Shown here piece by piece: positions 1 to 63,615 of a stretch of 64,000 nt of DNA (the first letter of the stretch is position 1; each line of letters opens with the position of its first letter). The notes under the pieces are model-generated. The model saw only the letters and a program-made list of their open reading frames with translations, was not told the origin of the DNA and did not search any database. This DNA comes from Candidatus Moranbacteria bacterium UBA4824 (GTDB lineage Bacteria; Patescibacteriota; Minisyncoccia; Moranbacterales; UBA2206). The position numbers were made by a program, and so were the translations under genes. Location: contig DHFM01000046.1 in assembly GCA_002400405.1 (NCBI GenBank), forward strand, positions 11,722-75,721, read 5' to 3'.

Positions 1-31
1 TCATTTTCTGTGGTATAATTTATTTGCAATT

Positions 32-13379: not shown

Positions 13380-13385
13380 AAAATT

Positions 13386-25779: not shown

Positions 25780-26937
25780 ATGAAATTAATTTGTACAGGA
25801 GAAAATTTAAAGAAAGCAGTTTTTAATTGTGAAAGAGTAGTTTCAAAGAAAAATACTCTTCCTATACTAAATAATATTCTTTTTGAAACAGAAAAAGGAG
25901 GGTTAAAATTATCTGCGACTAATTTAGAAATTGGAGTTTCTTCTAAAATTGGAGCAAAAATAGAAAAAGAAGGGCGAATAACTATTCCCGCAAAACTAAT
26001 TAGTAATTTTTCTAATAATCTTTCGGGTAATGAAAATATCTCCCTTGAACTTGTAGATAATAATTTAAAAATAAAAAGTGGGATAAATAAAGCTATAATA
26101 AAAGGAATTTCTGCAGAAGATTTTCCTCTTTTACCTCTTCGAAAAACCGAATATCTATTAGATATACCTATATTAAATTTAAAAATGGCTATTTTAAAAG
26201 TTATGCCAGCAGTAGCTTTTAATGAATCACGTCAAGAACTTACCGGAATTAATCTTATTTTAAGAGAAAAAGAACTCATTTTTGCTGCTACAGATAGTTT
26301 TCGTCTTTCAGAATGTCAGATTAAGTTAAATGAAATTGATAAAAATATTGAAAATTACAATATTTTTATTGAAAAAAATGAAAATGTTATTATTCCCGCA
26401 AATGTTTTAGTGGAGTTAAATCGGATATTAGCGTCGGATGCAAATAATAAAGTAAAAATAACTATTGAAGAGGGACAAATATTTTTTGAAGTAGATGGTA
26501 TTAAATTAGTCTCACGGCTTATAAATGGGAAATATCCTGAATATAAACATATAATGCCGGCGGAATATAAAACGAGAATAGTGGGAGAAAAACAGATTTT
26601 GCAAAATGCTATTAGGATGGCAAGTGTTTTTTCCTTAAGTGGATCAAATGAGATAACGCTCAAAATTAACCAAGAAGAAGGAAAAATTTTTATACTATCT
26701 TCCAGTGCTGAAGTTGGGGAAAACTCAACTGAACTTAAATTTGACATTACAGGACCATCTCAGGAAGTTGTTTTTAATGCTAAATATCTTTTAGATGGAA
26801 TTAATGCTACTACCACTTCCCAAGTGGCAATTTTGCTAAACAGCGAAGCTACGCCTGTGGCAGTTCGTGAAATAAATGAAAAATCCGGAGAGGTTTTGGA
26901 AGATTTTACCTATATTGTGATGCCGATAAAAAACTAA
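25780..26937 (+). CDS. dnaN: DNA polymerase III beta sliding clamp
   Basis: 385 aa, three-domain beta-clamp pattern. Conserved position after dnaA. Confidence 0.9.
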   Translation: MKLICTGENLKKAVFNCERVVSKKNTLPILNNILFETEKGGLKLSATNLEIGVSSKIGAKIEKEGRITIPAKLISNFSNNLSGNENISLELVDNNLKIKSGINKAIIKGISAEDFPLLPLRKTEYLLDIPILNLKMAILKVMPAVAFNESRQELTGINLILREKELIFAATDSFRLSECQIKLNEIDKNIENYNIFIEKNENVIIPANVLVELNRILASDANNKVKITIEEGQIFFEVDGIKLVSRLINGKYPEYKHIMPAEYKTRIVGEKQILQNAIRMASVFSLSGSNEITLKINQEEGKIFILSSSAEVGENSTELKFDITGPSQEVVFNAKYLLDGINATTTSQVAILLNSEATPVAVREINEKSGEVLEDFTYIVMPIKN

Positions 26938-26940
26938 AAA

Positions 26941-26970
26941 CATGAAACATATAGCATGAAACATGAAACA
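26941..26970. repeat. Repeat family F half-copy (catgaaacatatagcatgaaacatgaaaca) overlapping the trxB start
   Basis: Same catgaaacatgaaaca core as 44197..44275 and 54430..54503. Encodes the MKHETE N-terminus of trxB. Confidence 0.5.
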
Positions 26971-27903
26971 GAAGGTAAAATTCTTGATTTAATAATAATT
27001 GGTGCGGGGCCGGCGGGGCTTAGTGCTTCAATTTATGCTTCGCGTTATGGAGTGCAACATAAAATTGTGGGCGCGCTTTTAGGTGGACAAATTAGTGAGA
27101 CACATAAAATTGACAATTATCCAGGAATGGAAGATATGAGCGGATTTGAATTTAGTCAAAAATGGGGAAATCACGCTAAAAAATATGGGGTGGAAATTTT
27201 GCCAAACATGGTGGAAAAAATAAACAAAGAAGAGGATACTTTTTCTATAACTCTCGCGGATAAAAATATTTTGCGCTCAAAAACAATTCTTTTGGCTACT
27301 GGGACAAAAAAAAGAAAATTAAATATTATTGGCGAAAAAGAATTTATTGGAAAAGGTGTGTCATATTGCGCTACTTGTGATGGATTTTTTTATAAAAATA
27401 AAATCGTGGGCGTAATTGGTGGATCAGATAGCGCGGCGACCGCTACATTATATCTAGCGGATTTAGCGCAGAAAGTTTATTTAATTTATCGAAAAGCTGA
27501 ATTACGTGCTGAACCATTTTGGGTAAATTTAATTTTAAAAAATCCAAAAATAGAAGTGCTTTATGAAATAAATGTGGTGGAAATTTTAGGCCAACAAAAA
27601 TTGGAAAAAGTAAAACTAGACCGAGAATATAAAAACTCAAAAGAGCTAAATTTGGATGGACTTTTTATCGAAGCTGGCTCAGATCCGGCGACGGAATATT
27701 TTAGTGAACTAAGAATTGAATTAGATGAAAGCGGTTATATTAAAATTCAAAAAAATGGTGCGACAAATGTGGCAGGAGTTTTTTCAGCCGGCGACATCAC
27801 AGATGGTTCCGACAAATTCCGCCAAGTCATCACCGCTGCTTCCGAGGGTGCAATCTCCGCGCGCGCTATTTATGATTTTCTTAAGAAAAATAAAATGCAA
27901 TAA
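26956..27903 (+). CDS. trxB: Thioredoxin-disulfide reductase
   Basis: FAD motif IIGAGPAGLSASIYASRYG. Redox-active CATCDG. NADPH-binding GGSDSAATATLYLA. C-terminal GDITDG. Confidence 0.85.
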   Translation: MKHETEGKILDLIIIGAGPAGLSASIYASRYGVQHKIVGALLGGQISETHKIDNYPGMEDMSGFEFSQKWGNHAKKYGVEILPNMVEKINKEEDTFSITLADKNILRSKTILLATGTKKRKLNIIGEKEFIGKGVSYCATCDGFFYKNKIVGVIGGSDSAATATLYLADLAQKVYLIYRKAELRAEPFWVNLILKNPKIEVLYEINVVEILGQQKLEKVKLDREYKNSKELNLDGLFIEAGSDPATEYFSELRIELDESGYIKIQKNGATNVAGVFSAGDITDGSDKFRQVITAASEGAISARAIYDFLKKNKMQ

Positions 27904-37126: not shown

Positions 37127-37168
37127 ACCCGCCTCGCGTCGACAAGTGGTCTCCACGAGTCGAGGCGG
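37127..37168. repeat. Repeat family J: GC-rich hairpin (cccgcctcgcgtcgac...gtcgaggcggg) between the 7TM gene and the ATP-grasp fusion gene
   Basis: Perfect 9-bp outer stem. A related copy at 54668..54712 lies inside the tsaE 3' end. Confidence 0.45.
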
Positions 37169-37197
37169 GCGAATGTGGCACATGCGAATTAATTTAA

Positions 37198-37854: not shown

Positions 37855-37950
37855 ACCGATTCGAATCTTCGAATGTATGCGAATTCTCGAATCTACGAAT
37901 TTTTATTTAGCTTATTCGTAGATTCGAATGCATTTGTAGATTCGAATCGC
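37855..37950. repeat. Repeat family A variant array (multiple ATTCGAAT / TACGAAT units in direct and inverted orientation)
   Basis: attcgaatcttcgaatgtatgcgaattctcgaatctacgaat...ttattcgtagattcgaatgcatttgtagattcgaatcgc. Lies 5' of the 7TM gene ATG and also encodes the C-terminal tail of ruvC. Confidence 0.55.
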
Positions 37951-40231: not shown

Positions 40232-40273
40232 TTTTTAAGTAAAAATTTCTATAAATTATCAAAAATTTTTTAA

Positions 40274-40890: not shown

Positions 40891-40933
40891 AAAGCAACCT
40901 CATATCTCGTCGCTTTGCCTTCACTAATTTTTT

Positions 40934-44191: not shown

Positions 44192-44196
44192 AAGAT

Positions 44197-44275
44197 CATG
44201 AAGCATGAAGCATAAAACATGAAGCAATCCGTATTTTTTTGTTTTATGTTTCATGTTGTATGTTACATGTTACAT
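44197..44275. repeat. Repeat family F copy (palindromic: catgaagcatgaagcataaaacatgaagca ... gttttatgtttcatgttgtatgttacatgttacat)
   Basis: Arms are reverse-complementary. Same catgaaaca/tgtttcatg core as 26941 and 54430. Confidence 0.55.
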
Positions 44276-44292: not shown

Positions 44293-46167
44293 TTAGATTG
44301 TAATTTTCAAGAGGATATGATTTAAGGAAGAATTTATTTTTAGCCAAAGCGAATCTGAAAAAACCACTATCCAATGTTTTTGAGTGGTTGGGGTGGTGAA
44401 AAGATAGTGATTGTCTTTAGAGACAGGTTTAAAACCTGTCATTACGCCTAAAACCCTTGAATTTTGAGGGATTAACTTTTCGGGAAAAGTTATAGTGGGG
44501 CTTGAATAAGCCAAATTATGGCGTGTTTGTTGCTTTTTTTGCCAAATAGGCGAGGAAGTATATTTTCCAAGGTTGGCTTGGATTTCGGAGTCGGGGATAA
44601 TGAGAATATCTTCTTCTGTTGTGGCGCTGGTTCCCTCATCCGCCCTACGGGCACCTTCTCCCAAAGGGAGAAGGGGATTTTCAGTATTATTCTGTGTTTC
44701 TATCCAGCTCCAGCCATCGTCATTTTTTCCATAAAGCTCATCTTCATTGATTTTGTTTTTTTTCCGATCATATTTAATTTTTTGCACAACTTTCCCAGAG
44801 GGGTCGCGCAGTTCAATTTTTGTTTTTTCATTTCCTAAAGTGAAAGCGCAAATTTTTTTGGTGAGCTTTTTGGTTTTGCCTTTTTTGATTTTGAAATCTT
44901 CACGGATCGGATGATTAATTAGTTTGTCTTTTCCAGTGGCGATTGACCAGCCCTTGAGATTGACTTTGTCCTTGGATTGATTTTTAATTTCGATCCATTC
45001 ATTTTTTGTGTCACTTCCTTTGGGATTGGGGGAAAGACTTATTATGCGAATTTTTGGCGCATTATATTTTTCCACCTTAACACTAAAGTCATAGGTTTTG
45101 TCTTCGCCATCCCCAGTAATTTTTAGACTGCCTTTGAATTTTCCAGTTTTTTCATATTTGTGTTTTGTGGATTTTAGATAGCTTTTGTGGCCATCGCCAA
45201 AATTCCAAGTGAATTTTTTAGCGTCTTTTTCAGCTTTCACACTGAAATAGGCATAGGTGTTTTTGTAGATTTTTTTTGGTAGAATTAGTTTTCCGGACAG
45301 TATTTTATCGAAATTATTTTCTCCGCCAGGAGTAGGCAAAGATGTCCACCGCCAATCCGTTCCAGAAAAAGAATAGGAATAGGCGCTTTTTCCATTGGAA
45401 TATTTTTGGCTAGCGATTAAGTTATCTTTTTTGTCATAAAGAAAAACTGTGTCGCCCTTAGAGTCATTATTAAACGAAAAAGAGCCATAAAAAACAATAA
45501 AATTTCCAGTTTTTTCTTTCTTAGTAATTTTTCCTTTGGCACTTTTGGAATCTTTGATGACATAATTGGAGAAGTCAATTTCTTCTCCAGTTAAATTAAT
45601 TATCTCGACAAACTCTTCCTCGTCATTTTTAGTGTCTGGCGCCGGATAAATTTCGTTGATTCTAATCCCCGAATAATCTTGTGTTTCTTCTTCTTCTTCT
45701 TCTTCTTCTTCTTCTTCTTCTTCTTCCCAATTCAAACTATCAATAATAACCCCAGAATTTGTGTCGCCAAGTATTATAGCAATGCCATTTCCTTCGGAAA
45801 TAACACTACTTTTACTAGTGTTAGTCCAAAGATAAATTCCTTTAGCGGGGACAATATCTTCATTTCCAAATGATTTGAAGCTTGTGCGTGTTCCTGTAGA
45901 GGTTTTTTTAACAAGCCTATAATCATCCAAATTAATTGTTTCATTGGTGGTATTAGTAATTTCGATAAAGTCTTCCTCTGTTTTGCCAGTTCCGCCACTG
46001 TATTGAATATCGGTAATTTTTAAAATCGGCTCAGCCAAGCAAATTTTTTCCCAAATAAAAAAGCTAGCTAAAATAACCAGCCCGAAAATAAAATAATAAT
46101 ATTTTTTATTTTTATTTTTCACCCTAAATTTATCCCCCACCACTTTTAGTCTGCGCCAAAGGCGCAA
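44293..46167 (-). CDS. Secreted surface protein with three lamin-tail-domain-like modules, a PKD-like module and a poly-Glu linker
   Basis: Signal/TM (YYYFIFGLVILASFFIW). LTD-like segments (INEIYPAPDTKNDEEEFVEIINLTGEEIDFSNY; ISLSPNPKGSDTKNEWIEIKNQSKDKVNLKGW). PKD-like WNFGDGHKS. Run of about 15 Glu. Confidence 0.5.
   Translation of the reverse strand: MRLWRRLKVVGDKFRVKNKNKKYYYFIFGLVILASFFIWEKICLAEPILKITDIQYSGGTGKTEEDFIEITNTTNETINLDDYRLVKKTSTGTRTSFKSFGNEDIVPAKGIYLWTNTSKSSVISEGNGIAIILGDTNSGVIIDSLNWEEEEEEEEEEEEEETQDYSGIRINEIYPAPDTKNDEEEFVEIINLTGEEIDFSNYVIKDSKSAKGKITKKEKTGNFIVFYGSFSFNNDSKGDTVFLYDKKDNLIASQKYSNGKSAYSYSFSGTDWRWTSLPTPGGENNFDKILSGKLILPKKIYKNTYAYFSVKAEKDAKKFTWNFGDGHKSYLKSTKHKYEKTGKFKGSLKITGDGEDKTYDFSVKVEKYNAPKIRIISLSPNPKGSDTKNEWIEIKNQSKDKVNLKGWSIATGKDKLINHPIREDFKIKKGKTKKLTKKICAFTLGNEKTKIELRDPSGKVVQKIKYDRKKNKINEDELYGKNDDGWSWIETQNNTENPLLPLGEGARRADEGTSATTEEDILIIPDSEIQANLGKYTSSPIWQKKQQTRHNLAYSSPTITFPEKLIPQNSRVLGVMTGFKPVSKDNHYLFTTPTTQKHWIVVFSDSLWLKINSSLNHILLKITI
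45685..45727. repeat. (GAA)n/(TTC)n trinucleotide microsatellite, about 14 units, inside the surface-protein CDS (encodes poly-Glu)
   Basis: Direct run ttcttcttc... on the plus strand. In-frame unit length permits length variation without frameshift. Confidence 0.8.
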
Positions 46168-48266: not shown

Positions 48267-48269
48267 AAT

Positions 48270-48378
48270 AATTTTTAATTTTGTAATTTTTAATTTTATA
48301 AATAAATCTAAAATCTAAATTTTTAAAAATTAGAAATTAAGAAATTATTTAAAAATTAAAAAATTAAAAATTGGAAAT
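48270..48378. repeat. AT-only ~110-bp direct repeat, copy 1 (family H)
   Basis: aatttttaattttgtaatttttaattttataaataaatctaaaatctaaatttttaaaaatta... recurs with a few changes at 49222..49333. Confidence 0.6.
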
Positions 48379-48403
48379 TCGAGTAAATTTAGTATACACC
48401 CAT

Positions 48404-48633: not shown

Positions 48634-48680
48634 CATTTCAGAACCACTGATTATCACTGATTATACTGATTTCACTGAAT
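48634..48680. repeat. Repeat family D partial copy (cagaaccactgattatcactgattatactgatttcactgaat)
   Basis: Shares the 5' arm of the 105-bp element at 6079 and 6584. Confidence 0.5.
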
Positions 48681-49131: not shown

Positions 49132-49221
49132 AACCAGGCGTGGAGGAGTATGGTGGGAAAAAGAAAAAGGGTTAGCTTGTCGATATAAGCGCCCTTTTTT
49201 TGTTGTCTGAACCACAAAACA

Positions 49222-49333
49222 ATTTTTAATTTTTGAATTTTTAATTTTATAAATAAATCTTAAATCTAAATTTTTAAAAATTAAAAATTGAAATTTATTT
49301 AAAAATTACAAAAATTATAAAATTAAAAATTTT
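49222..49333. repeat. AT-only ~110-bp direct repeat, copy 2 (family H), abutting the stop of the double-PilB gene
   Basis: See 48270..48378. Confidence 0.6.
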
Positions 49334-52300
49334 CTAAAGATCAGTGACTCGTTCCACTTCTTCAAGTGATGTCCCACCTTCCAAAACTTTCAAAATTCCA
49401 TCTTGTGTCATTGTGAGCATGCCGAGTTCGACGGCTTTTTCTTCTAGTTCGGCGGTGATGGCGCCACGGGTGACGAGGTCTTGAATTTCACGGGTTAGTT
49501 GGAAAACTTCACTAACAGTCATGCGACCTTTGTAACCTAGACCGTTGCATTTTTCGCAACCTTTTGGATGATAAATCTCTAAAACTTTGGGAATGTCCAC
49601 TCCCGCCTTTGGACTAATAGTGGCTAAAACTTTTTCAATCATTTCTTTTTCTTTTTCATTTGGCTGGACTTTTTCTTTGCAATCACAAAGGCGACGCACG
49701 AGGCGTTGCGCCATAAAGGCATTGACGGCGGTGGCGATGTCGGACGGGGAAACGCCCATATTGATCATTCGCGCCACTGCTCCGGCGGCGTTGTTGGTGT
49801 GAATTGTAGAAAGCACCAGATGTCCTGTGAGTGAAGCTTGCACGGCTACTTGGGCAGTTTCATCGTCACGAATTTCACCAATCATCATGATATCCGGATT
49901 TTGACGAAGCAGAGCGCGCAGAGCGGTGGCGAAAGTATAGCCTTCTTTGTCGTTGACTGGAGTTTGCAAAATTCCTGGGAGTTGATATTCGATTGGATCT
50001 TCTACGGTGATTATTTTTACTTCCGGTTTATTAAGCATACTGAGAACACTATAGAGTGTGGTAGTTTTTCCACTGCCTGTTGGGCCGGTGTTTAAAATTA
50101 CACCATTAGGTTTTTTTATTTCTGAAATTATTTTGTCTAAGTTTTGTTGTCTAATACCAAGCTTAGTAAGATCCAATTCCATCGATGAACCGCGGAGGAG
50201 TCGCATCACAATTGTTTCACCATAACCACCCAGGATGATCGAAACACGCACATCAATATTTTTTTCGGAGATTGTGATGTCGTCATCAAATTTTATACTA
50301 AAGCGACTGTCAATCACTCCTTGGCGCACTTCAGTTTTCACACCGGAAAGAATTTTAATTTCGCCAAGTAAGGCCGGATATTCATTGAGTGGAAGAGTGG
50401 CAACATTTTGCAAAATTCCATCAATGCGAAAACGAATTTTGACATCATCTTTTTCTGGTTCGATATGAATGTCGCCAACATTGAGAATGGTAGCGGCTGA
50501 AAAAACAATTTTGTTAATATCAGTAGTTTTGGCTGAGCGTAAAATTTCTTCCAGTTTTTTGAAATCCGCTATATTTTCTTGAGCCGAGGTATATTGACTA
50601 TTTTCAATAAGAATTTTTTTGCCCAAAGTTTGGGACATTAATTTCTCATAAATACTTTCCAAAAATTCTCCTTGTCCTGTCGCACTTTCCACTTCATCAA
50701 TGGAAGTGACTCCGGCAATAGCTTTCAAAATTCCATCTTGAAGCATAGTGATCATTCCGGATTCCAAAGCGGCCATAGCTAATTCTGTTTCGCCGGCCAT
50801 TTCTAAAATTAATTTTTCGATATCTTCATTAATCGTGAGTACTTCAAAAATTCCTACGCGACCCTTATACCCCAAACCATTGCATTTCGGACAACCTTTT
50901 GGGCGATAGAGTTTTTCAATGTCTTTGGGAATTTCTACTTTAGCTTTAGGCGAAATAATGGAGAGAATTTTTTTGATAGATTCTATTGATTCTTTTGCTG
51001 GAACATAGGCTTCCTTGCAATCACAAAGTTTTCGCACCAGCCTTTGACCGATAACAGCATTCATAGCGGGGGACATCAAAGTTGGTTTTACTCCAAGCTC
51101 AATAAATCTTGGAATAGCCCCGACAGCATTATTAGTGTGGAGTGAAGACAAAACTAAATGCCCCGTAAGTGCAGAATTAACCGCGATATCAGCCGTTTCA
51201 TCATCGCGAATTTCACCCACTAAAATAACATCTGGATCCTGACGGACAATAGCGCGCAGGCCTTGAGCGAAAGTATAACCTCGTCCTTTTTCTATTTGAG
51301 TTTGAGAAATGCCGGATAATTCATATTCAATCGGATCTTCAATAGTAATGATTTTTTTGTCCGGAGTGTTGAGTTTGTTGATGATTGAATATAGGGTAGT
51401 AGTTTTTCCCGAACCGGTTGGTCCGGTGTTTAGAATCATTCCATTAGGTGAGAGCATTTGTTTTTGCACAGTTTCATAGGCTAAACCTTGGAGACCTAAA
51501 TTTTCCACGCTTACTTTGATTGAATCAGGATCTAGAAGGCGCATTACAACTGACTCACCAAAATTACCAGGGATAATACTCACACGCAAAGCAATTTTTT
51601 TCTCTGCTAGATTTATCTCAAAAGTTCCGTCTTGGGCGATATCGCGAAGATTGAGTTTCATCTTGGACATCAATTTTATGCGCGAGATGATTGTGTTGAA
51701 AACATTGAGAGGTAAAAAGGCGACATCTTGCAAATTGCCATCAATTCGATAACGCAGACGAATTTCTTTTTCTTGCGGTTCAATGTGGACATCGCTGGCA
51801 CCAAGCTTGTAGGCTCCGGCTAGCATAATATTTAGAACTTGAGTAGTGGGAAGTTCTTTAATACGTTGTTTTAGGGTGATCAAATCTTTCATTTCTTCCT
51901 CAAACTTATTCAAATCATCTCCACTAAGACTCAAACTCATTTGATCAAGGATATCTACAAAAACAATCTGTTTATATTTTTCCCAAACGCGATTGATATT
52001 TGAGGTGGAAACGACAAAAAGTTTTATCTGCCAACCTTTTTCAGTTTTTAGATTTTCTATAAAATCATGAGTTTCTTGATTTCTTGGATCGCGAGATATG
52101 ATAGTGACGACTTTGCCACTTCTGTGAATTAGGGCAATGCCGAATTTTCGCGCTTCCTCCTCGGTTAGGAGACGAATATCATCTTTGGAAATTGGGATTA
52201 GATTAGTGTCGACATAGGGAAGATTAAGTTCGGCTGCTAAGGCGCTAGCCATTTCCTCCTCCTCTTTTTTTCTAAATGTAGAAAGAATTTTGGCGGTTTT

Positions 52301-52363
52301 ATTTTCCTGTTGAATTTCATCAGGTTTTACATTTTGAACTTTTGGTTTGAGAATTTTGATCAT
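49334..52363 (-). CDS. Tandem-fused double PilB/GspE-family secretion ATPase (two complete ATPase units in one 1009-aa polypeptide)
   Basis: Two Walker A sites (both NTGPTGSGKTTTLYS). Two Asp boxes and His boxes. Two tetracysteine motifs (CDCKE...CPKCNGLGYKGR and CDCKE...CEKCNGLGYKGR). Two C-terminal MLQDGILK/MTQDGILK motifs. N-terminal GspE_N-like region before each. Confidence 0.8.
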   Translation of the reverse strand: MIKILKPKVQNVKPDEIQQENKTAKILSTFRKKEEEEMASALAAELNLPYVDTNLIPISKDDIRLLTEEEARKFGIALIHRSGKVVTIISRDPRNQETHDFIENLKTEKGWQIKLFVVSTSNINRVWEKYKQIVFVDILDQMSLSLSGDDLNKFEEEMKDLITLKQRIKELPTTQVLNIMLAGAYKLGASDVHIEPQEKEIRLRYRIDGNLQDVAFLPLNVFNTIISRIKLMSKMKLNLRDIAQDGTFEINLAEKKIALRVSIIPGNFGESVVMRLLDPDSIKVSVENLGLQGLAYETVQKQMLSPNGMILNTGPTGSGKTTTLYSIINKLNTPDKKIITIEDPIEYELSGISQTQIEKGRGYTFAQGLRAIVRQDPDVILVGEIRDDETADIAVNSALTGHLVLSSLHTNNAVGAIPRFIELGVKPTLMSPAMNAVIGQRLVRKLCDCKEAYVPAKESIESIKKILSIISPKAKVEIPKDIEKLYRPKGCPKCNGLGYKGRVGIFEVLTINEDIEKLILEMAGETELAMAALESGMITMLQDGILKAIAGVTSIDEVESATGQGEFLESIYEKLMSQTLGKKILIENSQYTSAQENIADFKKLEEILRSAKTTDINKIVFSAATILNVGDIHIEPEKDDVKIRFRIDGILQNVATLPLNEYPALLGEIKILSGVKTEVRQGVIDSRFSIKFDDDITISEKNIDVRVSIILGGYGETIVMRLLRGSSMELDLTKLGIRQQNLDKIISEIKKPNGVILNTGPTGSGKTTTLYSVLSMLNKPEVKIITVEDPIEYQLPGILQTPVNDKEGYTFATALRALLRQNPDIMMIGEIRDDETAQVAVQASLTGHLVLSTIHTNNAAGAVARMINMGVSPSDIATAVNAFMAQRLVRRLCDCKEKVQPNEKEKEMIEKVLATISPKAGVDIPKVLEIYHPKGCEKCNGLGYKGRMTVSEVFQLTREIQDLVTRGAITAELEEKAVELGMLTMTQDGILKVLEGGTSLEEVERVTDL

Positions 52364-52367: not shown

Positions 52368-52400
52368 TTACGAATTACGAATTAGTACGAATGTACGAAT
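52368..52400. repeat. Repeat family A copy (ttacgaattacgaattagtacgaatgtacgaat) 5 nt upstream of the double-PilB start codon
   Basis: 33/33 identical to 21939..21971. Confidence 0.6.
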
Positions 52401-54224: not shown

Positions 54225-54749
54225 ATGCAAAAAGAATTTATTACAATTAACTCTAAACAAACCCAAAAATTAGGCGAGCTTTTGGCGCGGGAATTACGAG
54301 GAGGAGAAATTATATGCTTGGATGGTGAATTGGGTGCTGGAAAAACAACTTTCACCCAAGGACTTTTGAAAGGTTTGAAAATTAAGGGGCCGTATACTAG
54401 TCCGACGTTTCTCATTATGAAGCAATATCATATAGCATGTAACATGAAACATGAAACAAAAGAAAAAAAAATGCTTCATGCTTCATGCTGCATGTTTCAT
54501 GACGTTTATCACTTTGATGCGTATCGTGTGGAGGCGCAGGATATTTTGAATTTAGGTTTCGAAGAAATATTGTCGAATAAGAAAAATATTATTATAATAG
54601 AATGGGCGAGTAGAATAGAAAAAATTATTCCAAAAGATAGTTTACGAATAAATTTTGAGTGGTTAGACCCGCCTTGCGTCGATGAGCGAACATCTTCGCA
54701 AGTCGAGGCAGGTGAAAATAAAAGAAAAATAATTTTTAATTCAAAATAA
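54225..54749 (+). CDS. tsaE: tRNA t6A37 biosynthesis protein TsaE (YjeE), carrying two in-frame repeat insertions
   Basis: LGELLARELRGGEIICLDGELGAGKTTFTQGLLKGL...TSPTFLIM. Repeat F (54430..54503) adds about 20 aa between the TSPTF and HFDAYR motifs. Repeat J (54668..54712) forms the C-terminal tail. Confidence 0.8.
   Translation: MQKEFITINSKQTQKLGELLARELRGGEIICLDGELGAGKTTFTQGLLKGLKIKGPYTSPTFLIMKQYHIACNMKHETKEKKMLHASCCMFHDVYHFDAYRVEAQDILNLGFEEILSNKKNIIIIEWASRIEKIIPKDSLRINFEWLDPPCVDERTSSQVEAGENKRKIIFNSK
54430..54503. repeat. Repeat family F copy inserted in-frame in tsaE
   Basis: catatagcatgtaacatgaaacatgaaaca...atgcttcatgcttcatgctgcatgtttcatgac. Encodes HIACNMKHETKEKKMLHASCCMFH. Confidence 0.55.
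54668..54712. repeat. Repeat family J copy (GC-rich hairpin) inside the tsaE 3' end
   Basis: cccgccttgcgtcga...gtcgaggcagg. Ends shared with 37127..37168. Confidence 0.45.
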
Positions 54750-54754
54750 AATTT

Positions 54755-54832
54755 TTGTCATCCTGAACAAGTTTTCAGGATCTCTAGTGCTGATAATTAA
54801 TTAAGATGCTGAAACAAGTTCAGCATGACAAA
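54755..54832. repeat. Repeat family G short element (78 bp, terminal inverted repeats tttgtcatcctgaac / gttcagcatgacaaa, two hairpins)
   Basis: Terminal inverted repeats match those of the 144-bp element at 29892..30035. Confidence 0.5.
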
Positions 54833-54844
54833 TTGCATAAGTCT

Positions 54845-57915: not shown

Positions 57916-60627
57916 ATGTTAAACAAACCAAAAAAACTCATTCTAATTGACGGCAATGCGATCATTCATCGGTCATATCATGCGCTTCCGCCACTAACGA
58001 CCAAAAGTGGGGAATTGGTCAACGCAGTTTATGGATTTGCGTCCACAATGCTCAGTGTCATTTCCAAATTCCAGCCGGACTATATTCTGGCGACTTTTGA
58101 TTTGGCGGGACCGACTTTTCGTCATGAGGAATATAAGGAATATAAGGCGACACGAACAAAAGCGCCAGATGAACTTTATGCGCAAATTGAGCGAGTAAAA
58201 GAAGTGGTGCGGGCGATGGGCATTCCAATTTATGAAAAGGCGGGGTTTGAGGCGGATGACGTGATTGGGACGATGATTAGAAAATCAGAAAATGAACATG
58301 AAGACATTGAAAATATAATCGTGACGGGGGATCTGGACACAGTGCAACTAGTGAGTCCGAAAACTCAAGTGTACACCATGCGTCGAGGGCTCACGGATTC
58401 GGTGATGTATGATGAGGCGAAAGTTTTTGAAAGATATGGACTGAAACCTAATCAGATTATTGATTATAAAGGTCTGCGCGGAGATCCGTCGGATAATATT
58501 TTAGGTGTCAAAGGGATTGGAGAAAAAACCGCTTCCTCTTTGCTTCAAAAATATGGGACAATTGAGGGAGTGTATGAAAATATTGCTGAAATCAAAGGGT
58601 CAGTCAAAGAAAAATTGGAACGGGACAAAATGCAAGCTATTCAAAGTAAACGCTTAGCAACAATTCGCACGGATGTTCCAGTGGAATTGAACTTGGAAGA
58701 AGCGAAAACGCATGAATTTGATCGAACAAAACTAATTAGGCTTTTTCAAGAATTGACTTTCTACTCGCTAATAAAACGTATCCCAGAGTCGAAAGATTTT
58801 AATACTACAAATTTACAAATCAATTACAAATCTACAAATAATTCCGGAATTAAGGATTTTAAATATGAACTGATTACGGATGATAAGGCGGAAGAATTTT
58901 TCAAGAATTTAAATGCGCAAAAAGAAGTTGCGATTACACTCAGAACCTCACCCCAACCCTCTCCTTATCAAGGAGAGGGGGTTAAAGGCATAGCATTTTC
59001 TTGGAAAACTGGGCGAGCCGGATATATAGAAAAAGTCGAAAGTCAGAAGTCGAAAGTCAAAAGTATTTTAGAAAATAATGGAATCAAAAAAATTGGGTAT
59101 GATTTGAAAAATAGTATAAAAATTTTAAAAGAAAATGATATTGAGCTAAAAGGTGAATTGTACGATGTAATGCTTTCAGCTTATGTGCTAAATCCGGGGG
59201 CAAAAATGGATCTTGCGAGATTAGTTTTAGAGCAATTGGGCGAGGAGGTGCATGAAGAAAAAAAGAAGGGACAGCTGGGATTGGATATGGAAACACAAGA
59301 AGAAATTGCCAACAAGGAATGCAAAGTAGCTGATTATATTTTTAAGTTAAAAGAAATTTTTTCAGAAAAAATTGAAAAAATTTCTGGGGATCAAGGTAAG
59401 GATAATAATTTGGAAAATGTTTTTTCAAAAATTGAAATGCCACTCGTTGAAATTTTAGCAGAAATGGAAATTCATGGAGTAAAACTAAATACAGTTATTT
59501 TTAAAGGTATTGTAGAAAAGATAAATGCGCGGATAATTAATTTGGAAAAAAGTATCTATGCCTTAGCTGGAATTGAATTTAATATCAATTCTCCTAAACA
59601 ATTGGCGGAAATTCTTTTTGTGAAACTTAAAATTTCAACGGATAACATTAAGAAGGGAAAGACTGGATATTCAACTGCATCAGCGGAATTACAAAAAATT
59701 AAGGGGGAATATAAAATTGCGGAAAAAATTGAAGAATACCGAGAAATTTTCAAATTGAAAACTACCTATCTAGATGCGCTACCGCTGTTAGTGGATGAAA
59801 AATCACGCATTCACACCACTTTCAACCAAGCCGTCACCGCTACAGGGCGTTTGTCCTCTTCGGAACCTAATTTGCAAAACATTCCAATTCGTACTGATCT
59901 TGGACAACTTTTGCGCGTCGCTTTTGAAGCCGAACAAGGATATAAATTAGTAGCGGCTGACTATTCACAAATTGATCTTCGCGCCGTGGCCCATGTTTCG
60001 GGGGATAAAAAAATGATTGAACTTTTTCATGTTGGGTCTGATATTCATACTGCTACCGCTTCTGAAATCAACAAGGTTTCAATTTCGCAAGTGACTCAGA
60101 AAATGCGAAGTTCGGCCAAAGCTTTGAATTTTGGTGTGATATATGGGATGAGCGTTTTTGGTTTTTCTGTCTCAGCTGGAATTTCCAGAGATGACGCCAA
60201 AAAATTTATCGACGCATATTTTGAAAAATTTACCGGTGTGGCGCAGTATATGAAATCAACCAAAGAATTTGCGAAAATTAATGGTTATGTCGAAACCGAA
60301 ATGGGTCGCCGTCGTTATATCCCAGAGATAAATTCTTCAAATTTTATGGTGCAAAATTCAGCTGAGCGAATGGCAATTAATATGCCGATTCAAGGCATGT
60401 CAGCTGATATCGTGAAGCTCGCAATGCTCGCGGTTGCCCAAGTTTATAAAAATAATCCAGATGTAAAAATAATTTTACAAGTGCATGATGAAATAATTTT
60501 GGAAGTAAAAGAAAATTTAGCGCAGGAAGTGGCCAAAAAAGTCAAAGAAATTATGGAAGGTGTTTATAAACTTAAAGTCCCGCTAGTGGTGGATGTGAAG
60601 GTGGGGGATAATTGGGGGGAAATTTAA
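57916..60627 (+). CDS. polA: DNA polymerase I
   Basis: 5'-3' exonuclease N-terminus (LILIDGNAIIHRSYHA). Polymerase motifs A/B/C (DYSQIDLRAVAHVS; RSSAKALNFGVIYG; QVHDEIILEV). Confidence 0.95.
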   Translation: MLNKPKKLILIDGNAIIHRSYHALPPLTTKSGELVNAVYGFASTMLSVISKFQPDYILATFDLAGPTFRHEEYKEYKATRTKAPDELYAQIERVKEVVRAMGIPIYEKAGFEADDVIGTMIRKSENEHEDIENIIVTGDLDTVQLVSPKTQVYTMRRGLTDSVMYDEAKVFERYGLKPNQIIDYKGLRGDPSDNILGVKGIGEKTASSLLQKYGTIEGVYENIAEIKGSVKEKLERDKMQAIQSKRLATIRTDVPVELNLEEAKTHEFDRTKLIRLFQELTFYSLIKRIPESKDFNTTNLQINYKSTNNSGIKDFKYELITDDKAEEFFKNLNAQKEVAITLRTSPQPSPYQGEGVKGIAFSWKTGRAGYIEKVESQKSKVKSILENNGIKKIGYDLKNSIKILKENDIELKGELYDVMLSAYVLNPGAKMDLARLVLEQLGEEVHEEKKKGQLGLDMETQEEIANKECKVADYIFKLKEIFSEKIEKISGDQGKDNNLENVFSKIEMPLVEILAEMEIHGVKLNTVIFKGIVEKINARIINLEKSIYALAGIEFNINSPKQLAEILFVKLKISTDNIKKGKTGYSTASAELQKIKGEYKIAEKIEEYREIFKLKTTYLDALPLLVDEKSRIHTTFNQAVTATGRLSSSEPNLQNIPIRTDLGQLLRVAFEAEQGYKLVAADYSQIDLRAVAHVSGDKKMIELFHVGSDIHTATASEINKVSISQVTQKMRSSAKALNFGVIYGMSVFGFSVSAGISRDDAKKFIDAYFEKFTGVAQYMKSTKEFAKINGYVETEMGRRRYIPEINSSNFMVQNSAERMAINMPIQGMSADIVKLAMLAVAQVYKNNPDVKIILQVHDEIILEVKENLAQEVAKKVKEIMEGVYKLKVPLVVDVKVGDNWGEI

Positions 60628-61883: not shown

Positions 61884-61895
61884 AAATTTTGTAAT

Positions 61896-61919
61896 CTTTC
61901 CTAAAGCTCGGCTTTAGGG
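61896..61919. repeat. REP-like palindrome copy 2 (divergent: ctttcctaaagctcggctttaggg)
   Basis: Sits 13 nt upstream of the RAYT gene. Confidence 0.55.
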
Positions 61920-61931
61920 TACAATTGCATT

Positions 61932-62600
61932 ATGAGAAAAATAGAATTTGCTAATGAGGAATATTATCATATATTTAATCGCGGAGTAGATAAGCGCGAA
62001 ATATTTTTAAGCTCTCAAGAATACGAGAGATTTATTTTGGCGATGCAATTATTAAATGATAAAGAAGGCGGACTAATGATCAAATGGAGGGATTACAAAA
62101 AAGCCAATCCAACCGCTAAATTAGAGTCTTTCCTAAAGCGAAGCTTTAGGAAGAGGGAACCGCTGGTTGAGATTATTGCATATTGTCTAAATCCAAATCA
62201 TTATCATTTTATTTTGAAACAAATTGAAGATAATGGTATTGAAAGGTTTATGCATAAAATTGGGACAAGTTATACAAAATATTTTAATAAGAAAAATAAG
62301 CGAAGCGGAGTTTTGTTTCAAGGAGTTTTCAAATCAGTTCATATTGATTCCAATGAATACTTATTGTATCTTTCGGCTTATGTGAATAAAAATAATTTTA
62401 TTCACAGATACAATAAAAATGATGACTGGTCATATTCCAGTTTATTGGATTATTTAGGTAAGAAAAAAAGCGGATTTTTAAATATGAATGCAGTTTTAGG
62501 ACAATTTAAAAGTATAAATGAATATGAAGAATATTTGAAAAATAATGCTTTATATATGAAAGAAAAAAAGGAAATGGAGGAATATTTAATTGAAGAATAA
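61932..62600 (+). CDS. IS200/IS605-like Y1 (HuH) transposase of the REP-associated (RAYT) type
   Basis: N-terminal YHIFNRG motif. HuH motif HYHFIL. Downstream Tyr region (YLSAYVNKNN). Flanked by, and internally carrying, the REP-like palindrome. Confidence 0.6.
   Translation: MRKIEFANEEYYHIFNRGVDKREIFLSSQEYERFILAMQLLNDKEGGLMIKWRDYKKANPTAKLESFLKRSFRKREPLVEIIAYCLNPNHYHFILKQIEDNGIERFMHKIGTSYTKYFNKKNKRSGVLFQGVFKSVHIDSNEYLLYLSAYVNKNNFIHRYNKNDDWSYSSLLDYLGKKKSGFLNMNAVLGQFKSINEYEEYLKNNALYMKEKKEMEEYLIEE
62128..62153. repeat. REP-like palindrome copy 3, in-frame inside the RAYT CDS (encodes SFLKRSFRK)
   Basis: Identical 26-mer to copy 1. No stop codon introduced. Confidence 0.65.
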
Positions 62601-62601
62601 C

Positions 62602-62627
62602 TTTCCTAAAGCTTCGCTTTAGGAAGA
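62602..62627. repeat. REP-like palindrome copy 4 (loop inverted, i.e. opposite orientation) between the RAYT stop and the mutM start
   Basis: ctttcctaaagcttcgctttaggaag. Confidence 0.65.
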
Positions 62628-62632: not shown

Positions 62633-63529
62633 ATGCCGGAATTACCTGAGGTACAAACAGTCGTAAGTGACTTAAATGAAAAAATAAAGGGCGACACAAT
62701 TATGGGTTTTTGGAGTGAGTGGGGAAAAGCGATTAAGAATAAGAGCTTAGAGAAATTTAAAAAAGAAATTCAAAACAGAAAAATTTTGGGGGCGAGGAGA
62801 ATTGGAAAAAATATTTTTATTGATCTGTCAGGTGGAAAAACTTTGTATATACATTTGAAGATGACAGGGCATCTTCTAATCAAGGAACAAGAAACAAGAG
62901 ACAAGGAACAAAAAAATCACAAATTACAAAATCCAAAATCAAAAATACAAAATTATTTTTCTGATCGAGTTAATCAATATATTCGACATAAGTTTTATCT
63001 TAAATCTGGACGAACACTGGAATTTTCGGATATGAGGAAGTTTGCGAAGATTGTTTTGAATGATACAGAAAAAATAAATAATTTGAAAGAAATAAAAAAC
63101 TTAGGAATTGATGCACTCGATCCGAAATTTACTTTTAAAAAGTTTCAAGAAATTTTAGGAAAAAAACCCAATTCAAAAATAGGAATAATTTTGATGGATC
63201 AGAACATAATTTCCGGTATTGGTAATATCTATCGCAGTGAAATTTTGTTCGATGCGAAAGTTTTACCAGAAAGAATAGTGAAGTCAATCTCAAAAAAAGA
63301 TTTAGAAAAAATATACAAAGCGATGATAAAAATCCTAAAAAAAGCTGTGAAAATGCGAGGAACTTCCGACTCGGATTATCGTGACACTTCTGGCGCTCCG
63401 GGGAATTTCCAAAAAGTTTTAATGGTGTATAATAAAGAAAAGCAGGAATGCAAAGTTTGTGGTACAATAATTAAAAGAGAAACGCTGGGACAGAGAAGTG
63501 TTTTTATTTGCTCAAGTTGTCAGAAGTAA
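62633..63529 (+). CDS. mutM: Formamidopyrimidine-DNA glycosylase (Fpg/MutM) with low-complexity insert
   Basis: MPELPEV N-terminus. H2TH region. C-terminal zinc finger CKVCGTIIKRETLGQRSVFICSSCQ. K/Q-rich insert KEQETRDKEQKNHKLQNPKSKIQ. Confidence 0.85.
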   Translation: MPELPEVQTVVSDLNEKIKGDTIMGFWSEWGKAIKNKSLEKFKKEIQNRKILGARRIGKNIFIDLSGGKTLYIHLKMTGHLLIKEQETRDKEQKNHKLQNPKSKIQNYFSDRVNQYIRHKFYLKSGRTLEFSDMRKFAKIVLNDTEKINNLKEIKNLGIDALDPKFTFKKFQEILGKKPNSKIGIILMDQNIISGIGNIYRSEILFDAKVLPERIVKSISKKDLEKIYKAMIKILKKAVKMRGTSDSDYRDTSGAPGNFQKVLMVYNKEKQECKVCGTIIKRETLGQRSVFICSSCQK

Positions 63530-63548
63530 TTTTTTATAAATAATTTTA

Positions 63549-63614
63549 ATTTACTAAAGTACGAATCGAGCGAAAGTACGAATTCGTAATTTAGTTTAAT
63601 TAGTATTTTCGTAA
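63549..63614. repeat. Repeat family A copy (near-identical to 7380..7445), ending 1 nt before the next ATG
   Basis: agcgaaagtacgaattcgtaatttagtttaatt(a/c)gtattttcgtaaa shared with the copy at 7380. Confidence 0.65.
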
Positions 63615-63615
63615 A

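What the first reader, a model, noticed from the sequence alone, without database searches (positions are those of the whole stretch)
54225..54749. tsaE carrying two different repeat elements in-frame (palindromic repeat F in its core and GC-hairpin repeat J forming its C-terminal tail)
TsaE motifs (GAGKTT P-loop, TSPTF, HFDAYR) are intact. Between TSPTF...Y and HFDAYR there is an extra segment encoded by the palindromic element catgaaacatgaaaca...catgtttcatg (54430..54503; protein HIACNMKHETKEKKMLHASCCMFH). Copies of the same element form the N-terminal codons of trxB (MKHETE) and lie upstream of yebC (44197..44275).

The last ~25 codons of tsaE are encoded by a GC-rich hairpin repeat (54668..54712) whose sister copy is intergenic at 37127..37168. 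The ruvC C-terminal tail is likewise encoded by a TACGAAT array.

In this genome, short structured repeats have repeatedly inserted into essential-gene coding sequences without breaking the frame. That implies strong selection on insert length and phase, or a targeting mechanism.
Basis: partly seen in the sequence, partly recalled or inferred. Interest (0 to 1): 0.6.

Follow-up and report, generated by a model that had tools for sequence, protein, structure and literature searches.

The report
Hairpin repeats embedded in-frame in tsaE
An intact tRNA-modification gene (tsaE) of a tiny-genome CPR bacterium carries two of the genome's own hairpin repeats in frame inside surface turns, one case of a lineage-wide pattern in which such repeats come, go and replace each other at the same spots in conserved proteins, much as in Rickettsia.

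Summary
tsaE (54225-54749) is an intact TsaE gene. It contains a 75-nt palindrome of CATGAAA heptamers (F, 54428-54502) and a 45-nt GC-rich hairpin (J, 54668-54712). Both have sister copies in the window. J is not the C-terminal tail. It is a clean 15-codon insertion between Asp148 and Glu164, and the native last 10 codons are kept.

Comparison with about 120 Moranbacteria orthologues shows the inserts are nucleic-acid elements, not native protein sequence. Nearly identical TsaE cores carry F, two other hairpins or nothing at loop 1. J is present or absent at two different sites, with at least 7 gain/loss events at the C-terminal site. F shows no codon periodicity, and between close relatives it is more conserved than synonymous sites.

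Consensus J copies are a multiple of 3 in length and stop-free in all six frames. The same elements sit in frame in polA, fpg and a Y1-transposase gene. Heptamer arrays are a genome-wide feature (20 found versus 0.4 expected).

Best reading: Rickettsia-RPE / intragenic-REP-like repeats tolerated in beta-turns, possibly mobilised as hairpins and possibly under host-level constraint. This is a new variant of a known kind. Interest is moderate.

The parts
54225..54749 (+). tsaE coding sequence (174 aa), intact, carrying both inserts
   Evidence: ORF list. Pfam TsaE at 115.5 bits. AF2 core pLDDT >90, and Foldseek TM 0.70-0.77 (normalised by target length) to solved TsaE structures. An identical protein on a 100% identical 10.6-kb contig comes from an independent sample.
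54428..54502 (+). Repeat F: 75-nt palindrome. Left arm of CATGAAA-type heptamers (54428-54458), A-rich loop (54459-54471), inverted arm (54472-54502). It encodes residues ~69-92 in the beta-hairpin turn between the SPTF strand and the YHFDAYR strand.
   Evidence: DNA fold z = -3.6 on the minus strand and -2.0 on the plus strand. Absent in L168/L169 and replaced in L166/L083. pLDDT 52-57.
54668..54712 (+). Repeat J: 45-nt GC-rich hairpin. It encodes (D)PPCVDERTSSQVEAG, inserted between Asp148 and Glu164.
   Evidence: Clean insertion relative to the empty site TTAGA^TGAAAAT. 45/45 identical in L166/L167. DNA fold z = -3.3.
44195..44275 (-). Sister copy of F in the spacer between the upstream gene and yebC. 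It ends 5 nt before the true yebC start. The same reading frame is open (MKHKTKKYGLLHVLCFMLHDL).
   Evidence: Present at the orthologous position in L163 and absent in L169.
26934..26974 (+). Half copy of F (direct heptamer array only). It fills the dnaN-trxB spacer and supplies the trxB start codon and first 5 codons.
37128..37169 (+). Sister copy of J (42 nt), intergenic, inserted at TA^CGAAT next to TACGAAT-type repeats.
   Evidence: DNA fold -16.8 kcal/mol, z = -3.9.
61932..62600 (+). Y1 (IS200-like / RAYT-like) transposase gene. It is a candidate trans-acting enzyme for hairpin repeats. It is flanked by hairpin K (61895-61921, 62600-62626) and carries one K copy in frame inside itself (62127-62153).
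   Evidence: Pfam Y1_Tnp at 32 bits, above the cut-off of 23. Sequence. Repeat family D10. Syntenic in L166.
62879..62953 (+). Heptamer arrays (CAAGAAA, AAAATMC) in frame inside fpg. The peptide KEQETRDKEQKNHKLQNPKSKIQNY contains the same QNPKSKIQN motif that fills TsaE loop 1 in other Moranbacteria.
   Evidence: L166 Fpg has a different array, KSYKLKAKSY, at the same loop..
58957..58979 (+). Hairpin B (CCCTCTCCTTATCAAGGAGAGGG) in frame inside polA (PSPYQGEG). The same element fills TsaE loop 1 in L083/P0037. L001 has J at this polA site.
37907..37949 (-). ruvC C-terminal ~14 codons (RDSNLQMHSNLRIS) read into one arm of a CGAATCT/TACGAAT palindrome (37857-37949).
   Evidence: The RuvC Pfam domain ends at residue 162 of 186.

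Best explanation
tsaE here is a working TsaE gene that carries two independent in-frame copies of dispersed, hairpin-forming repeat elements of this Moranbacteria (CPR/Patescibacteria) lineage.

F is a palindrome built from tandem heptamers. It is the same kind of element that fills most short spacers between co-directional genes in this genome. J is a 39-45-nt GC-rich REP-like hairpin. Its length is always a multiple of three, and its consensus copies have no stop codon in any frame, so it cannot break a reading frame.

Both elements sit in beta-turns of the P-loop fold, where extra residues protrude as low-confidence loops.

Shown:
- The inserts behave as nucleic-acid elements. They have no codon periodicity, and their substitutions are mostly non-synonymous.
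- They are present, absent or swapped among nearly identical orthologues.
- They have sister copies elsewhere in the genome and inside other genes.

Inferred:
- J-type hairpins are moved as single-stranded hairpins by a Y1 (IS200/RAYT-like) transposase. This would explain insertion without target duplication next to a short motif (3' of TTC).
- Heptamer palindromes grow and change by slippage and template switching.
- Only in-frame, stop-free copies in permissive turns survive.

Their higher-than-synonymous conservation suggests the hairpins may also be kept by the host as DNA/RNA signals. That is not required for this explanation.
For: IDENTITY AND INTEGRITY
-.

REPEAT MEMBERSHIP
-.
- J is conserved across genomes, and its inner stem covaries: GTGG/CCAC, GCGG/CCGC, GCGA/TCGC.

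INSERTION POLARITY
- The empty J site is present in 6 relatives. F is absent in L168/L169 and replaced by other hairpins in L166/L089 and L083.
- Four insert combinations occur on cores that differ by only 4-7% in BLOSUM62 distance.
- J at the C-terminal site needs at least 7 events on an NJ tree.

NUCLEOTIDE-LEVEL BEHAVIOUR
- Window vs L163: core identity at codon positions 1/2/3 is 83/94/50, but in the insert it is 88/92/96.
- Codon differences in the insert are 5 non-synonymous against 1 synonymous. Fisher p = 6.5e-5.
- Orthologous elements are more conserved than their 150-nt flanks.

GENERALITY
- Period-7 arrays: 20 found versus 0.4 in shuffles.
- In-frame copies occur in polA, fpg and the Y1 gene.
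- 8 of 9 J copies in 450 kb are intragenic: 5 in tsaE and 3 in polA.
- In several genomes the tsaE insert matches that genome's own repeats elsewhere.

TOLERANCE
- The inserts have pLDDT ~52-57 while the core is >90.
- TsaE loop 1 is 12-13 aa in ordinary bacteria and 9-38 aa in CPR.

J PROPERTIES
- Length is a multiple of 3, and consensus copies are stop-free in 6 frames.
- There is no target-site duplication.
- A Y1_Tnp gene is present.

PRECEDENT
- Intragenic REPs and RPEs, notably in replication/repair and tRNA genes (PMC3733652; PMC10969869).
Against: - No transposition event, excision polymorphism or enzyme-element link was shown. The Y1 gene is flanked by hairpin K, not by J or F.
- Copy numbers seen are small: F 3 and J 2 in 64 kb.
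- Individual copies of a purely selfish element should decay neutrally. Instead, orthologous copies are more conserved than synonymous sites and flanks, and orthologues (92-97%) are more alike than paralogues (79%). This points to host-level constraint or very recent exchange.
- The event counts rest on a 125-column NJ tree.
- The orthologue sample is biased towards F-bearing sequences, because the searches used words from the insert.
- The J site lies 2-4 residues before the adenine-contacting residues of TsaE. Neutrality for function is therefore assumed, not shown.
Confidence: 0.7

Rival explanations
1. The hairpins are host-functional nucleic-acid signals that overlap the coding sequence. 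Candidates are RNA processing, stability or termination hairpins, or binding sites for a heptamer-reading protein. On this view the tsaE copies are kept by selection on DNA/RNA rather than merely tolerated. This is compatible with an origin by insertion.
For: - Third codon positions in F are 92-100% identical between relatives whose core third positions are 50-73% identical.
- Orthologous F, TACGAAT, J and K copies are more conserved than their flanks. The loop of the yebC copy is free to vary.
- Orthologues are more alike than paralogues, which argues against within-genome homogenisation.
- In L171/L172 the hairpin register is kept in 20-22 of 28 pairs, with 4-5 double-sided changes, at only 57% identity in the paired columns.
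- Heptamer palindromes occupy nearly every short co-directional spacer, from stop codon to next start.
- Heptamer repeats upstream of start codons have been proposed as translational regulators in Beggiatoaceae (PMC4679880).
Against: - Close relatives lack the tsaE hairpin altogether (L168, L169) or carry unrelated ones.
- Many orthologues have direct-only arrays with no fold (z about 0).
- There is no Rfam family.
- No obvious role exists for a signal in the middle of tsaE.
- Conservation could reflect recent exchange between populations.
Confidence: 0.3
2. F arose in place rather than by insertion. On this view, slippage and quasi-palindrome template switching expanded a short A-rich loop of tsaE into a heptamer palindrome, and similar arrays elsewhere arose independently or were copied from it.
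For: - Heptamer arrays are the dominant slippage period here: 20 found versus 0.4 expected.
- Loop 1 holds tandem heptamers of many different units across CPR, some with no inverted arm.
- The insert length is a constant 25 codons in ten orthologues chosen for that length, whose sequences range from near-identical (92-97%) to unrelated (25-45%).
Against: - The tsaE copy shares irregular, non-unit details with the trxB and yebC copies (CATATAGCATG; 77 nt at 79%).
- The same peptide-coding arrays recur in different genes of different genomes: QNPKSKIQN in fpg here and in TsaE elsewhere; KSYKLKA in L166 Fpg and in L091/L106 TsaE.
- Hairpins A, B and J, which are not heptamer arrays, occupy the same site.
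Confidence: 0.15
3. The extra segments are lineage-specific functional protein loops of TsaE, for example extra contacts with TsaB/TsaD or tRNA, selected at the amino-acid level.
For: - The F-type peptide is recognisably conserved in many orthologues.
- The inserts are rich in Lys/Asn/His.
- The J site is next to the adenine-binding residues.
Against: - There is no codon periodicity, and non-synonymous changes outnumber synonymous ones inside the insert.
- Nearly identical cores carry unrelated peptides or none.
- pLDDT is low.
- The same peptides occur in unrelated proteins (polA, fpg).
Confidence: 0.05
4. The feature is an assembly or annotation artefact, a pseudogene, or a chance resemblance.
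For: - The source is a metagenome-derived sequence.
- Palindromes can be assembly artefacts.
- The yebC 'extension' is indeed an ORF-calling artefact.
Against: - An identical 10.6-kb sequence comes from an independent sample.
- The same inserts are found in independently assembled relatives.
- The ORF is intact with all motifs.
- The repeat matches are far above shuffled expectation.
Confidence: 0.02

Closest known systems
[quoted passage not shown]
   Same: - Dispersed palindromic repeats inserted in frame into conserved, unrelated housekeeping genes of a reduced genome.
- The encoded peptide is predicted to sit on the protein surface.
- Some genes are hit more than once.
   Different: - RPEs are ~100-150 bp and belong to a few sequence families of alphaproteobacteria. 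Here the elements are 23-75 nt, unrelated in sequence, in CPR.
- F is built from tandem heptamers.
- Different elements replace one another at the same codon among near-identical orthologues.
Intragenic REPs (GTAG- and CGTC-tagged palindromic repeats; Di Nocera et al. 2013, PMC3733652) and REPIN-RAYT systems
   Same: - Short GC-rich stem-loops, mostly extragenic, with a minority inside genes.
- The intragenic copies favour replication/repair and tRNA-related genes. Here they are in polA, fpg, ruvC and tsaE.
- A single-copy Y1 transposase gene is flanked by hairpins (element K).
   Different: - J has neither a GTAG nor a CGTC terminal tag. CGTC is internal.
- J does not flank the Y1 gene.
- J is mostly intragenic in the sample (8 of 9 copies).
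- J length is always a multiple of 3, and its consensus copies are open in all six frames.
Tandem heptanucleotide repeats of cyanobacteria (STRR; from memory: Mazel 1990) and TAACTGA repeats of Beggiatoaceae (PMC4679880)
   Same: - Tandem 7-nt units.
- Mainly intergenic and directly upstream of start codons.
- Several unit families per genome.
- Function unknown. Translational regulation or heptamer-binding OB-fold proteins have been proposed.
   Different: - Unit sequences differ.
- Here the arrays usually come as inverted pairs forming long hairpins.
- Here they are found translated inside conserved genes.
IS200/IS605-derived hairpin MITEs (palindrome-associated transposable elements) - from general knowledge
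   Same: - Insertion without target-site duplication.
- Dependence on a DNA hairpin.
- Insertion next to a short specific motif. J copies have a left flank ending in A and a right flank of (N)GAA, that is, 3' of TTC on the other strand.
   Different: - The link to a transposase is not shown.
- The target motif rests on 8 copies.
- J is much shorter than typical members.
GC clusters of yeast mitochondrial genomes - from memory
   Same: GC-rich palindromic mobile elements in an AT-rich compact genome, occasionally inserted in frame in a coding gene.
   Different: - Organellar and eukaryotic.
- Unrelated in sequence.
- Not tested here.

Membership tests
TsaE (PF02367 / TIGR00150), t6A ATPase subunit | Profile match above the curated cut-off | tested here: met
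   Pfam 115.5 bits (cut-off 26.6). TIGR00150 99.3 bits (cut-off 60.1).
TsaE (PF02367 / TIGR00150), t6A ATPase subunit | Walker A GxxGxGKT, the SPTF peptide, the YHxDxYR motif, the Glu-Trp (EW) dipeptide and the C-terminal adenine-stacking Arg | tested here: met
   G37-T42, S59PTF, Y95HFDAYR, E126W and R167 are invariant in alignment A1. They align to TmTsaE residues described in PMC6009658.
TsaE (PF02367 / TIGR00150), t6A ATPase subunit | P-loop fold of solved TsaE structures | tested here: met
   AF2 mean pLDDT 82.6, core >90. Foldseek hits 5np9, 6s84_E and 1htw_A at E 1e-11 to 1e-13, with TM 0.75-0.77 normalised by target.
In-frame palindromic repeat insertions (RPE-like / intragenic REP) | The element belongs to a multi-copy dispersed family in the same genome | tested here: met
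   F: 3 loci in 64 kb. J: 2 loci, plus copies in 6 other Moranbacteria loci.
In-frame palindromic repeat insertions (RPE-like / intragenic REP) | Palindromic / hairpin-forming | tested here: met
   DNA folds with z from -2.0 to -3.9. RNA folds with z = -5.9 for F. J inner-stem covariation.
In-frame palindromic repeat insertions (RPE-like / intragenic REP) | Orthologues without the insert show a clean, frame-preserving insertion | tested here: met
   J: empty site TTAGA^TGAAAAT in 6 relatives. F: absent in L168/L169.
In-frame palindromic repeat insertions (RPE-like / intragenic REP) | The insert lies in a surface loop compatible with the fold | tested here: inconclusive
   Both inserts are in beta-turns with pLDDT 52-57. 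The position relative to the TsaB/TsaD interface was not computed. The J site is adjacent to adenine-binding residues.
Rickettsia RPE families proper | Sequence homology to RPE-1..10 and the alphaproteobacterial lineage | tested here: not met
   The host is CPR/Moranbacteria. There is no Rfam or other match. The elements are 23-75 nt, not ~100-150 bp.
REP / REPIN-RAYT | Conserved GTAG or CGTC tetranucleotide at one end of the palindrome | tested here: not met
   J starts CCCGCC and ends GGCGGG. CGTC occurs only internally. Criterion from PMC3733652.
REP / REPIN-RAYT | Repeats flank a single-copy RAYT (Y1 transposase) gene | tested here: not met
   For J and F this is not met. The Y1_Tnp gene at 61932-62600 is flanked by hairpin K, not J or F. 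It is met for K.
REP / REPIN-RAYT | High copy number (tens to hundreds per genome) | not testable with these tools
   Only a 64-kb window and 6-20-kb flanks are available.
IS200/IS605-type hairpin MITE | No target-site duplication, and insertion 3' of a fixed short motif | tested here: inconclusive
   No TSD at the tsaE site. The flanks of 8 copies share ...A^ and ^(N)GAA. The sample is too small to establish a motif.
Classical MITE | Terminal inverted repeats plus a target-site duplication | tested here: not met
   J inserts without duplication.
Tandem heptamer repeat systems (STRR / TAACTGA type) | Arrays of 7-nt units in excess over other periods, mainly intergenic and near gene starts | tested here: met
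   Period 7: 20 arrays versus 0.4 expected; other periods are near background. 12 of 16 arrays/palindromes lie in spacers, many abutting start codons.
Tandem heptamer repeat systems (STRR / TAACTGA type) | The same unit sequences as the described families | tested here: not met
   The units here are CATGAAA, TACGAAT, TTTCAAK, AAAATCC and others. None is TAACTGA.

The most novel reading that the evidence does not exclude
In gene-dense CPR genomes a set of hairpin elements has become 'coding-compatible'. J is a multiple of 3 in length and, in its consensus form, open in six frames. These elements re-insert at specific sites, or into pre-existing hairpins. As a result the same codon of tsaE, polA and fpg is repeatedly occupied by different elements. 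In addition, the heptamer palindromes are host-constrained nucleic-acid signals read by a heptamer-specific factor, kept even when they overlap an essential coding sequence. If so, a second, non-protein code is embedded in protein loops across a whole phylum-level radiation.
Probability: 0.2. Interest if true: 0.8.

Novelty: new variant of a known kind. Interest (0 to 1): 0.55.

Why it matters

It also has practical consequences for annotation of CPR proteins:
- Lineage-specific 'insertions' may be repeat DNA.
- Gene starts may be mis-called through repeats, as for yebC.

It gives a tractable case for two open questions:
- What tandem heptamer repeats do in bacteria.
- Whether short hairpin repeats are purely selfish or host-maintained.

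Here one essential gene has four repeat-accepting sites, many natural insert/empty alleles, and nucleotide-level conservation that exceeds synonymous sites.

Tried and rejected
- Genome-contig scan with the orthologue alignment. I relied instead on the metagenome scan and on exact-protein look-ups.
- 14-mer probes of each orthologue's insert against its own 6-12-kb flank. Mostly empty, because the flanks are shorter than the spacing between copies. Only longer loci were informative.
- First hairpin scan with +1/-2 scoring. It missed F because of its A.C/G.T positions.
- Rfam. There was nothing at gathering thresholds. At the E-value threshold only sub-threshold animal miRNA hairpins appeared, which I treat as chance.
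- Viral-contig scan for J. It gave one match in a high-GC phage ORF with no hairpin, which I treat as chance.
- CGTC-tagged REP membership. Rejected, because the tag is internal.
- Programmed translational bypass (T4 gene 60 / mitochondrial byp-like). Considered and set aside. J and F are stop-free in the used frame, are a multiple of 3 in length, and lack matching take-off/landing codons.
- Within-genome homogenisation as the cause of F conservation. Disfavoured, because orthologous copies (92-97%) are more alike than paralogous ones (79%).
- Intragenic recombination as the origin of the F+J combination. The window is closest to L170 in the 5' part (89%) and to L166/L083 in the middle part (92%). 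The signal is too weak to conclude.
Full report
WHAT IS THERE

The ORF at 54225..54749 (+) encodes a 174-aa protein. It matches TsaE strongly: Pfam PF02367 at 2.1e-33 and TIGR00150 at 1.5e-28. The TIGR00150 match is split into two stretches. The Walker A motif, SPTF, YHFDAYR, the Glu-Trp dipeptide and the C-terminal Arg are all present, and they are invariant in an alignment with 30 orthologues. An AlphaFold2 model has a core pLDDT above 90. It superposes on solved TsaE structures with TM 0.70-0.77, normalised by target length. The identical protein lies on a 100% identical 10.6-kb contig from an independent sample, so it is not an assembly artefact. The best homologues are all Patescibacteria, mostly Candidatus Moranbacteria/Moraniibacteriota.

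REPEAT F

Positions 54428-54502 form a 75-nt palindrome. It has a left arm of CATGAAA-type heptamers, an A-rich loop, and the inverted arm. It matches 44196-44272 over 77 nt at 79%. Its left arm matches 26936-26980 at 78%, including the irregular CATATAGCATG unit.

A 16-mer of two units finds 19 sites with up to 3 mismatches, against 1.5 expected. Fourteen of them lie in these three loci.

The half copy fills the dnaN-trxB spacer and provides the trxB start. The 44195-44275 copy ends 5 nt before the real yebC start. Its only open frame runs into yebC, so ORF callers extend yebC to 258 aa, against 237 aa in relatives.

F is open in one frame per strand, and every coding-overlapping copy uses that frame.

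REPEAT J

Positions 54668-54712 are a 45-nt GC-rich hairpin with a sister copy at 37128-37169.

J is a 15-codon insertion (PPCVDERTSSQVEAG) between WLD and ENKRKIIFNSK. The last ten codons are native and conserved. Six close relatives have the empty site TGGTTAGA^TGAAAAT. The insertion is therefore exact and has no target duplication.

J is conserved almost unchanged in other Moranbacteria genomes. Its inner stem covaries: GTGG/CCAC, GCGG/CCGC and GCGA/TCGC. All copies are 39, 42 or 45 nt long. The consensus copies have no stop in any of the six frames.

THE INSERTS ARE NUCLEIC-ACID ELEMENTS, NOT NATIVE PROTEIN

Relatives at about 82-86% DNA identity over the flanking genes carry different contents at the same two sites:

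- F only: L163, L164, L170.
- A different GC hairpin plus the identical J (45/45): L166/L167.
- A third hairpin, plus J in reverse orientation at a different, N-terminal site: L083.
- Nothing at either site: L168, L169.

On insert-stripped sequences the window's three nearest neighbours have three different insert combinations. J at the C-terminal site has 9 carriers among 120 sequences and needs at least 7 gains or losses on an NJ tree.

Inside F there is no codon periodicity. For window vs L163 the core is 83/94/50% identical at codon positions 1/2/3, but the insert is 88/92/96%. The insert has 5 non-synonymous and 1 synonymous codon differences (Fisher p = 6.5e-5).

More distant orthologues with the same 25-codon insert length keep a hairpin made of other heptamers. 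L171 and L172 keep the same register, with 4-5 double-sided changes. L174 and L103 are unrelated in sequence. In several genomes the tsaE insert matches that genome's own repeats elsewhere:

- L171 at 8535.
- L086 at 315.
- L166 inside polA.
- L098 and L021.

THE SITE AND THE FOLD

Between SPTF and YHxDxYR, ordinary bacteria have 12-13 residues. CPR loci have 9-38, nearly always encoded by tandem heptamers or GC hairpins of lineage-specific sequence.

By alignment to Thermotoga TsaE, F replaces the four-residue turn PGLK. AF2 extends the beta-hairpin and leaves the tip at pLDDT about 52-57.

J lies in the last beta-turn, two and four residues before the positions whose main chain and Arg side chain hold the adenine ring in TmTsaE (PMC6009658). 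J is also modelled with low confidence.

Two further sites in TsaE accept elements in other genomes:

- J reversed at ELxGG^EVICL: P0025, P0099, L100, L101.
- NPPAGG at IIP^: P0021, P0076, P0096.

GENERALITY

Period-7 arrays number 20 in the window, against 0.4 in shuffles. Other periods are near background. Twelve of sixteen arrays or palindromes fill short spacers, typically running from a stop codon to within about 10-30 nt of the next start.

In-frame copies also occur in other genes:

- fpg (62879-62953). Its QNPKSKIQN peptide is what fills TsaE loop 1 in other genomes, and L166 has a different array in the same Fpg loop.
- polA, at three sites. One is hairpin B, at a position where L001 has J instead.
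- The Y1-transposase gene itself, which carries hairpin K at 62127-62153.
- The ruvC tail.

Of nine J copies found in 450 kb of Moranbacteria DNA, five are in tsaE, three in polA and one is intergenic. Only two of the six possible reading frames are used. All copies have a left flank ending in A and a right flank of (N)GAA. These counts come from loci centred on tsaE and from small numbers.

CONSERVATION

Where an element is present at the orthologous place, it is more conserved than its 150-nt flanks:

- F in tsaE: 92-93% against 79-84%.
- The TACGAAT array at 52368: 97% against 78-81%.
- J: 45/45 against 83%.
- K: 26/27 against 89%.

Otherwise the element is absent or replaced. Orthologous F copies (92-97%) are more alike than the paralogous tsaE and yebC copies (79%). 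This does not fit neutral decay of selfish copies or within-genome homogenisation. It fits host-level constraint on the nucleic acid, or very recent exchange.

INTERPRETATION

Shown: two dispersed hairpin repeats lie in frame in beta-turns of an intact tsaE. They evolve as DNA/RNA elements. They are gained, lost and swapped at a few fixed sites in several conserved proteins of this lineage.

Inferred:

- J-type hairpins move as single-stranded hairpins through a Y1 transposase. The supporting points are the absence of a target duplication, the flank motif, and the presence of a Y1 gene with its own hairpins.
- Heptamer palindromes change by slippage and template switching.
- Selection lets only frame-preserving copies in tolerant turns survive.

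A host function for the hairpins (rival 1) is a serious possibility and is compatible with this origin.

COMPARISON WITH KNOWN SYSTEMS

The closest precedents are:

- Rickettsia RPEs (PMC10969869).
- Intragenic REPs, which also favour replication/repair and tRNA-related genes (PMC3733652).
- Tandem heptamer repeats upstream of start codons, known from Beggiatoaceae and cyanobacteria (PMC4679880).

J fails two REP criteria: it lacks the terminal tag, and it does not flank the Y1 gene. None of the elements is homologous to RPEs. Literature searches found no description of such elements in CPR, though the library searched is incomplete.

VERDICT

- This is a new variant of a known kind.
- Interest is moderate (0.55).

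Noticed in passing
window 61895-62626: A Y1 (IS200/RAYT-like) transposase gene (61932-62600) is flanked by hairpin K (CCTAAAGC-NNNN-GCTTTAGG). It carries a perfect K copy in frame inside its own coding sequence (62127-62153, SFLKRSFRK). A fourth K copy follows the polA stop at 60628. The gene and the internal K copy are syntenic in L166 (26/27 identical).
   Followed up: partly
window 62879-62953 (fpg): Two heptamer arrays lie in frame in a loop of Fpg/MutM. The relative L166 has a different, shorter array (KSYKLKAKSY) at the same loop. This is the same 'one site, different repeat' behaviour as in TsaE loop 1.
   Followed up: partly
window 58806-58843, 58957-58979, 59031-59064 (polA): Three repeat-derived segments lie in frame in PolA linker regions. 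At the second site L001 carries J instead of hairpin B. L088 and L089 carry J at two further PolA sites. In L089, J is nested inside an in-frame TACGAAT array.
   Followed up: partly
window 43478-44254 (yebC): The longest ORF for yebC (258 aa) runs 21 codons upstream through repeat F. Relatives and the Pfam domain indicate the true start is at 44191 (237 aa). This is a repeat-induced start-codon mis-call.
   Followed up: yes
window, many spacers (e.g. 2138-2166, 2571-2673, 7379-7446, 13382-13508, 48267-48379, 49220-49344, 52368-52400, 63529-63636): Palindromes built from tandem heptamers of several unit families occupy most short spacers between co-directional genes, from the stop codon to just before the next start. 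Their function is unknown.
   Followed up: partly
window 54752-54836: A nested hairpin structure lies between tsaE and the peptidyl-prolyl isomerase gene: an outer stem TTTGTCAT/ATGACAAA enclosing two CTGAA..TTCAG hairpins. It is absent in L166, where the two genes abut.
   Followed up: no
window 49334-52363: The 1009-aa T2SSE-type ATPase contains an internal tandem duplication (49352-49734 vs 50687-51072, 71-74% identical), that is, two fused ATPase modules. This is conserved in all relatives.
   Followed up: no
window 6066-6187 / 6572-6693, and 48635-48675: A 122-nt direct repeat (95%) flanks a small ORF. It contains CTGATTA-type arrays that also match, inverted, a site at 48635-48675.
   Followed up: no
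window 38378-38515 / 40268-40405, and 39216-39269 / 40884-40937: Two pairs of longer direct repeats (138 nt and 54 nt, 87% identical) lie about 1.7-1.9 kb apart. They suggest a local duplication.
   Followed up: no
window 45685-45726: A perfect (TTC)14 microsatellite sits inside the 624-aa ORF on the minus strand, giving a poly-Glu run.
   Followed up: no
orthologues P0065, P0112, P0091, P0057: Further small GC hairpins (e.g. LPEVATSLQAG, LPTGRQ, NPPAGG) are nested inside the F-type or IPNPK-type loop-1 insert. Elements therefore insert into elements.
   Followed up: no
window 54472-54502 vs 44197-44226: The T/C differences between the arms of F leave A.C mismatches on the sense strand but G.T wobbles on the antisense strand. 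This holds for both the tsaE and the yebC copies. The hairpin is accordingly more stable on the strand antisense to the adjacent gene (z = -3.6 versus -2.0).
   Followed up: partly
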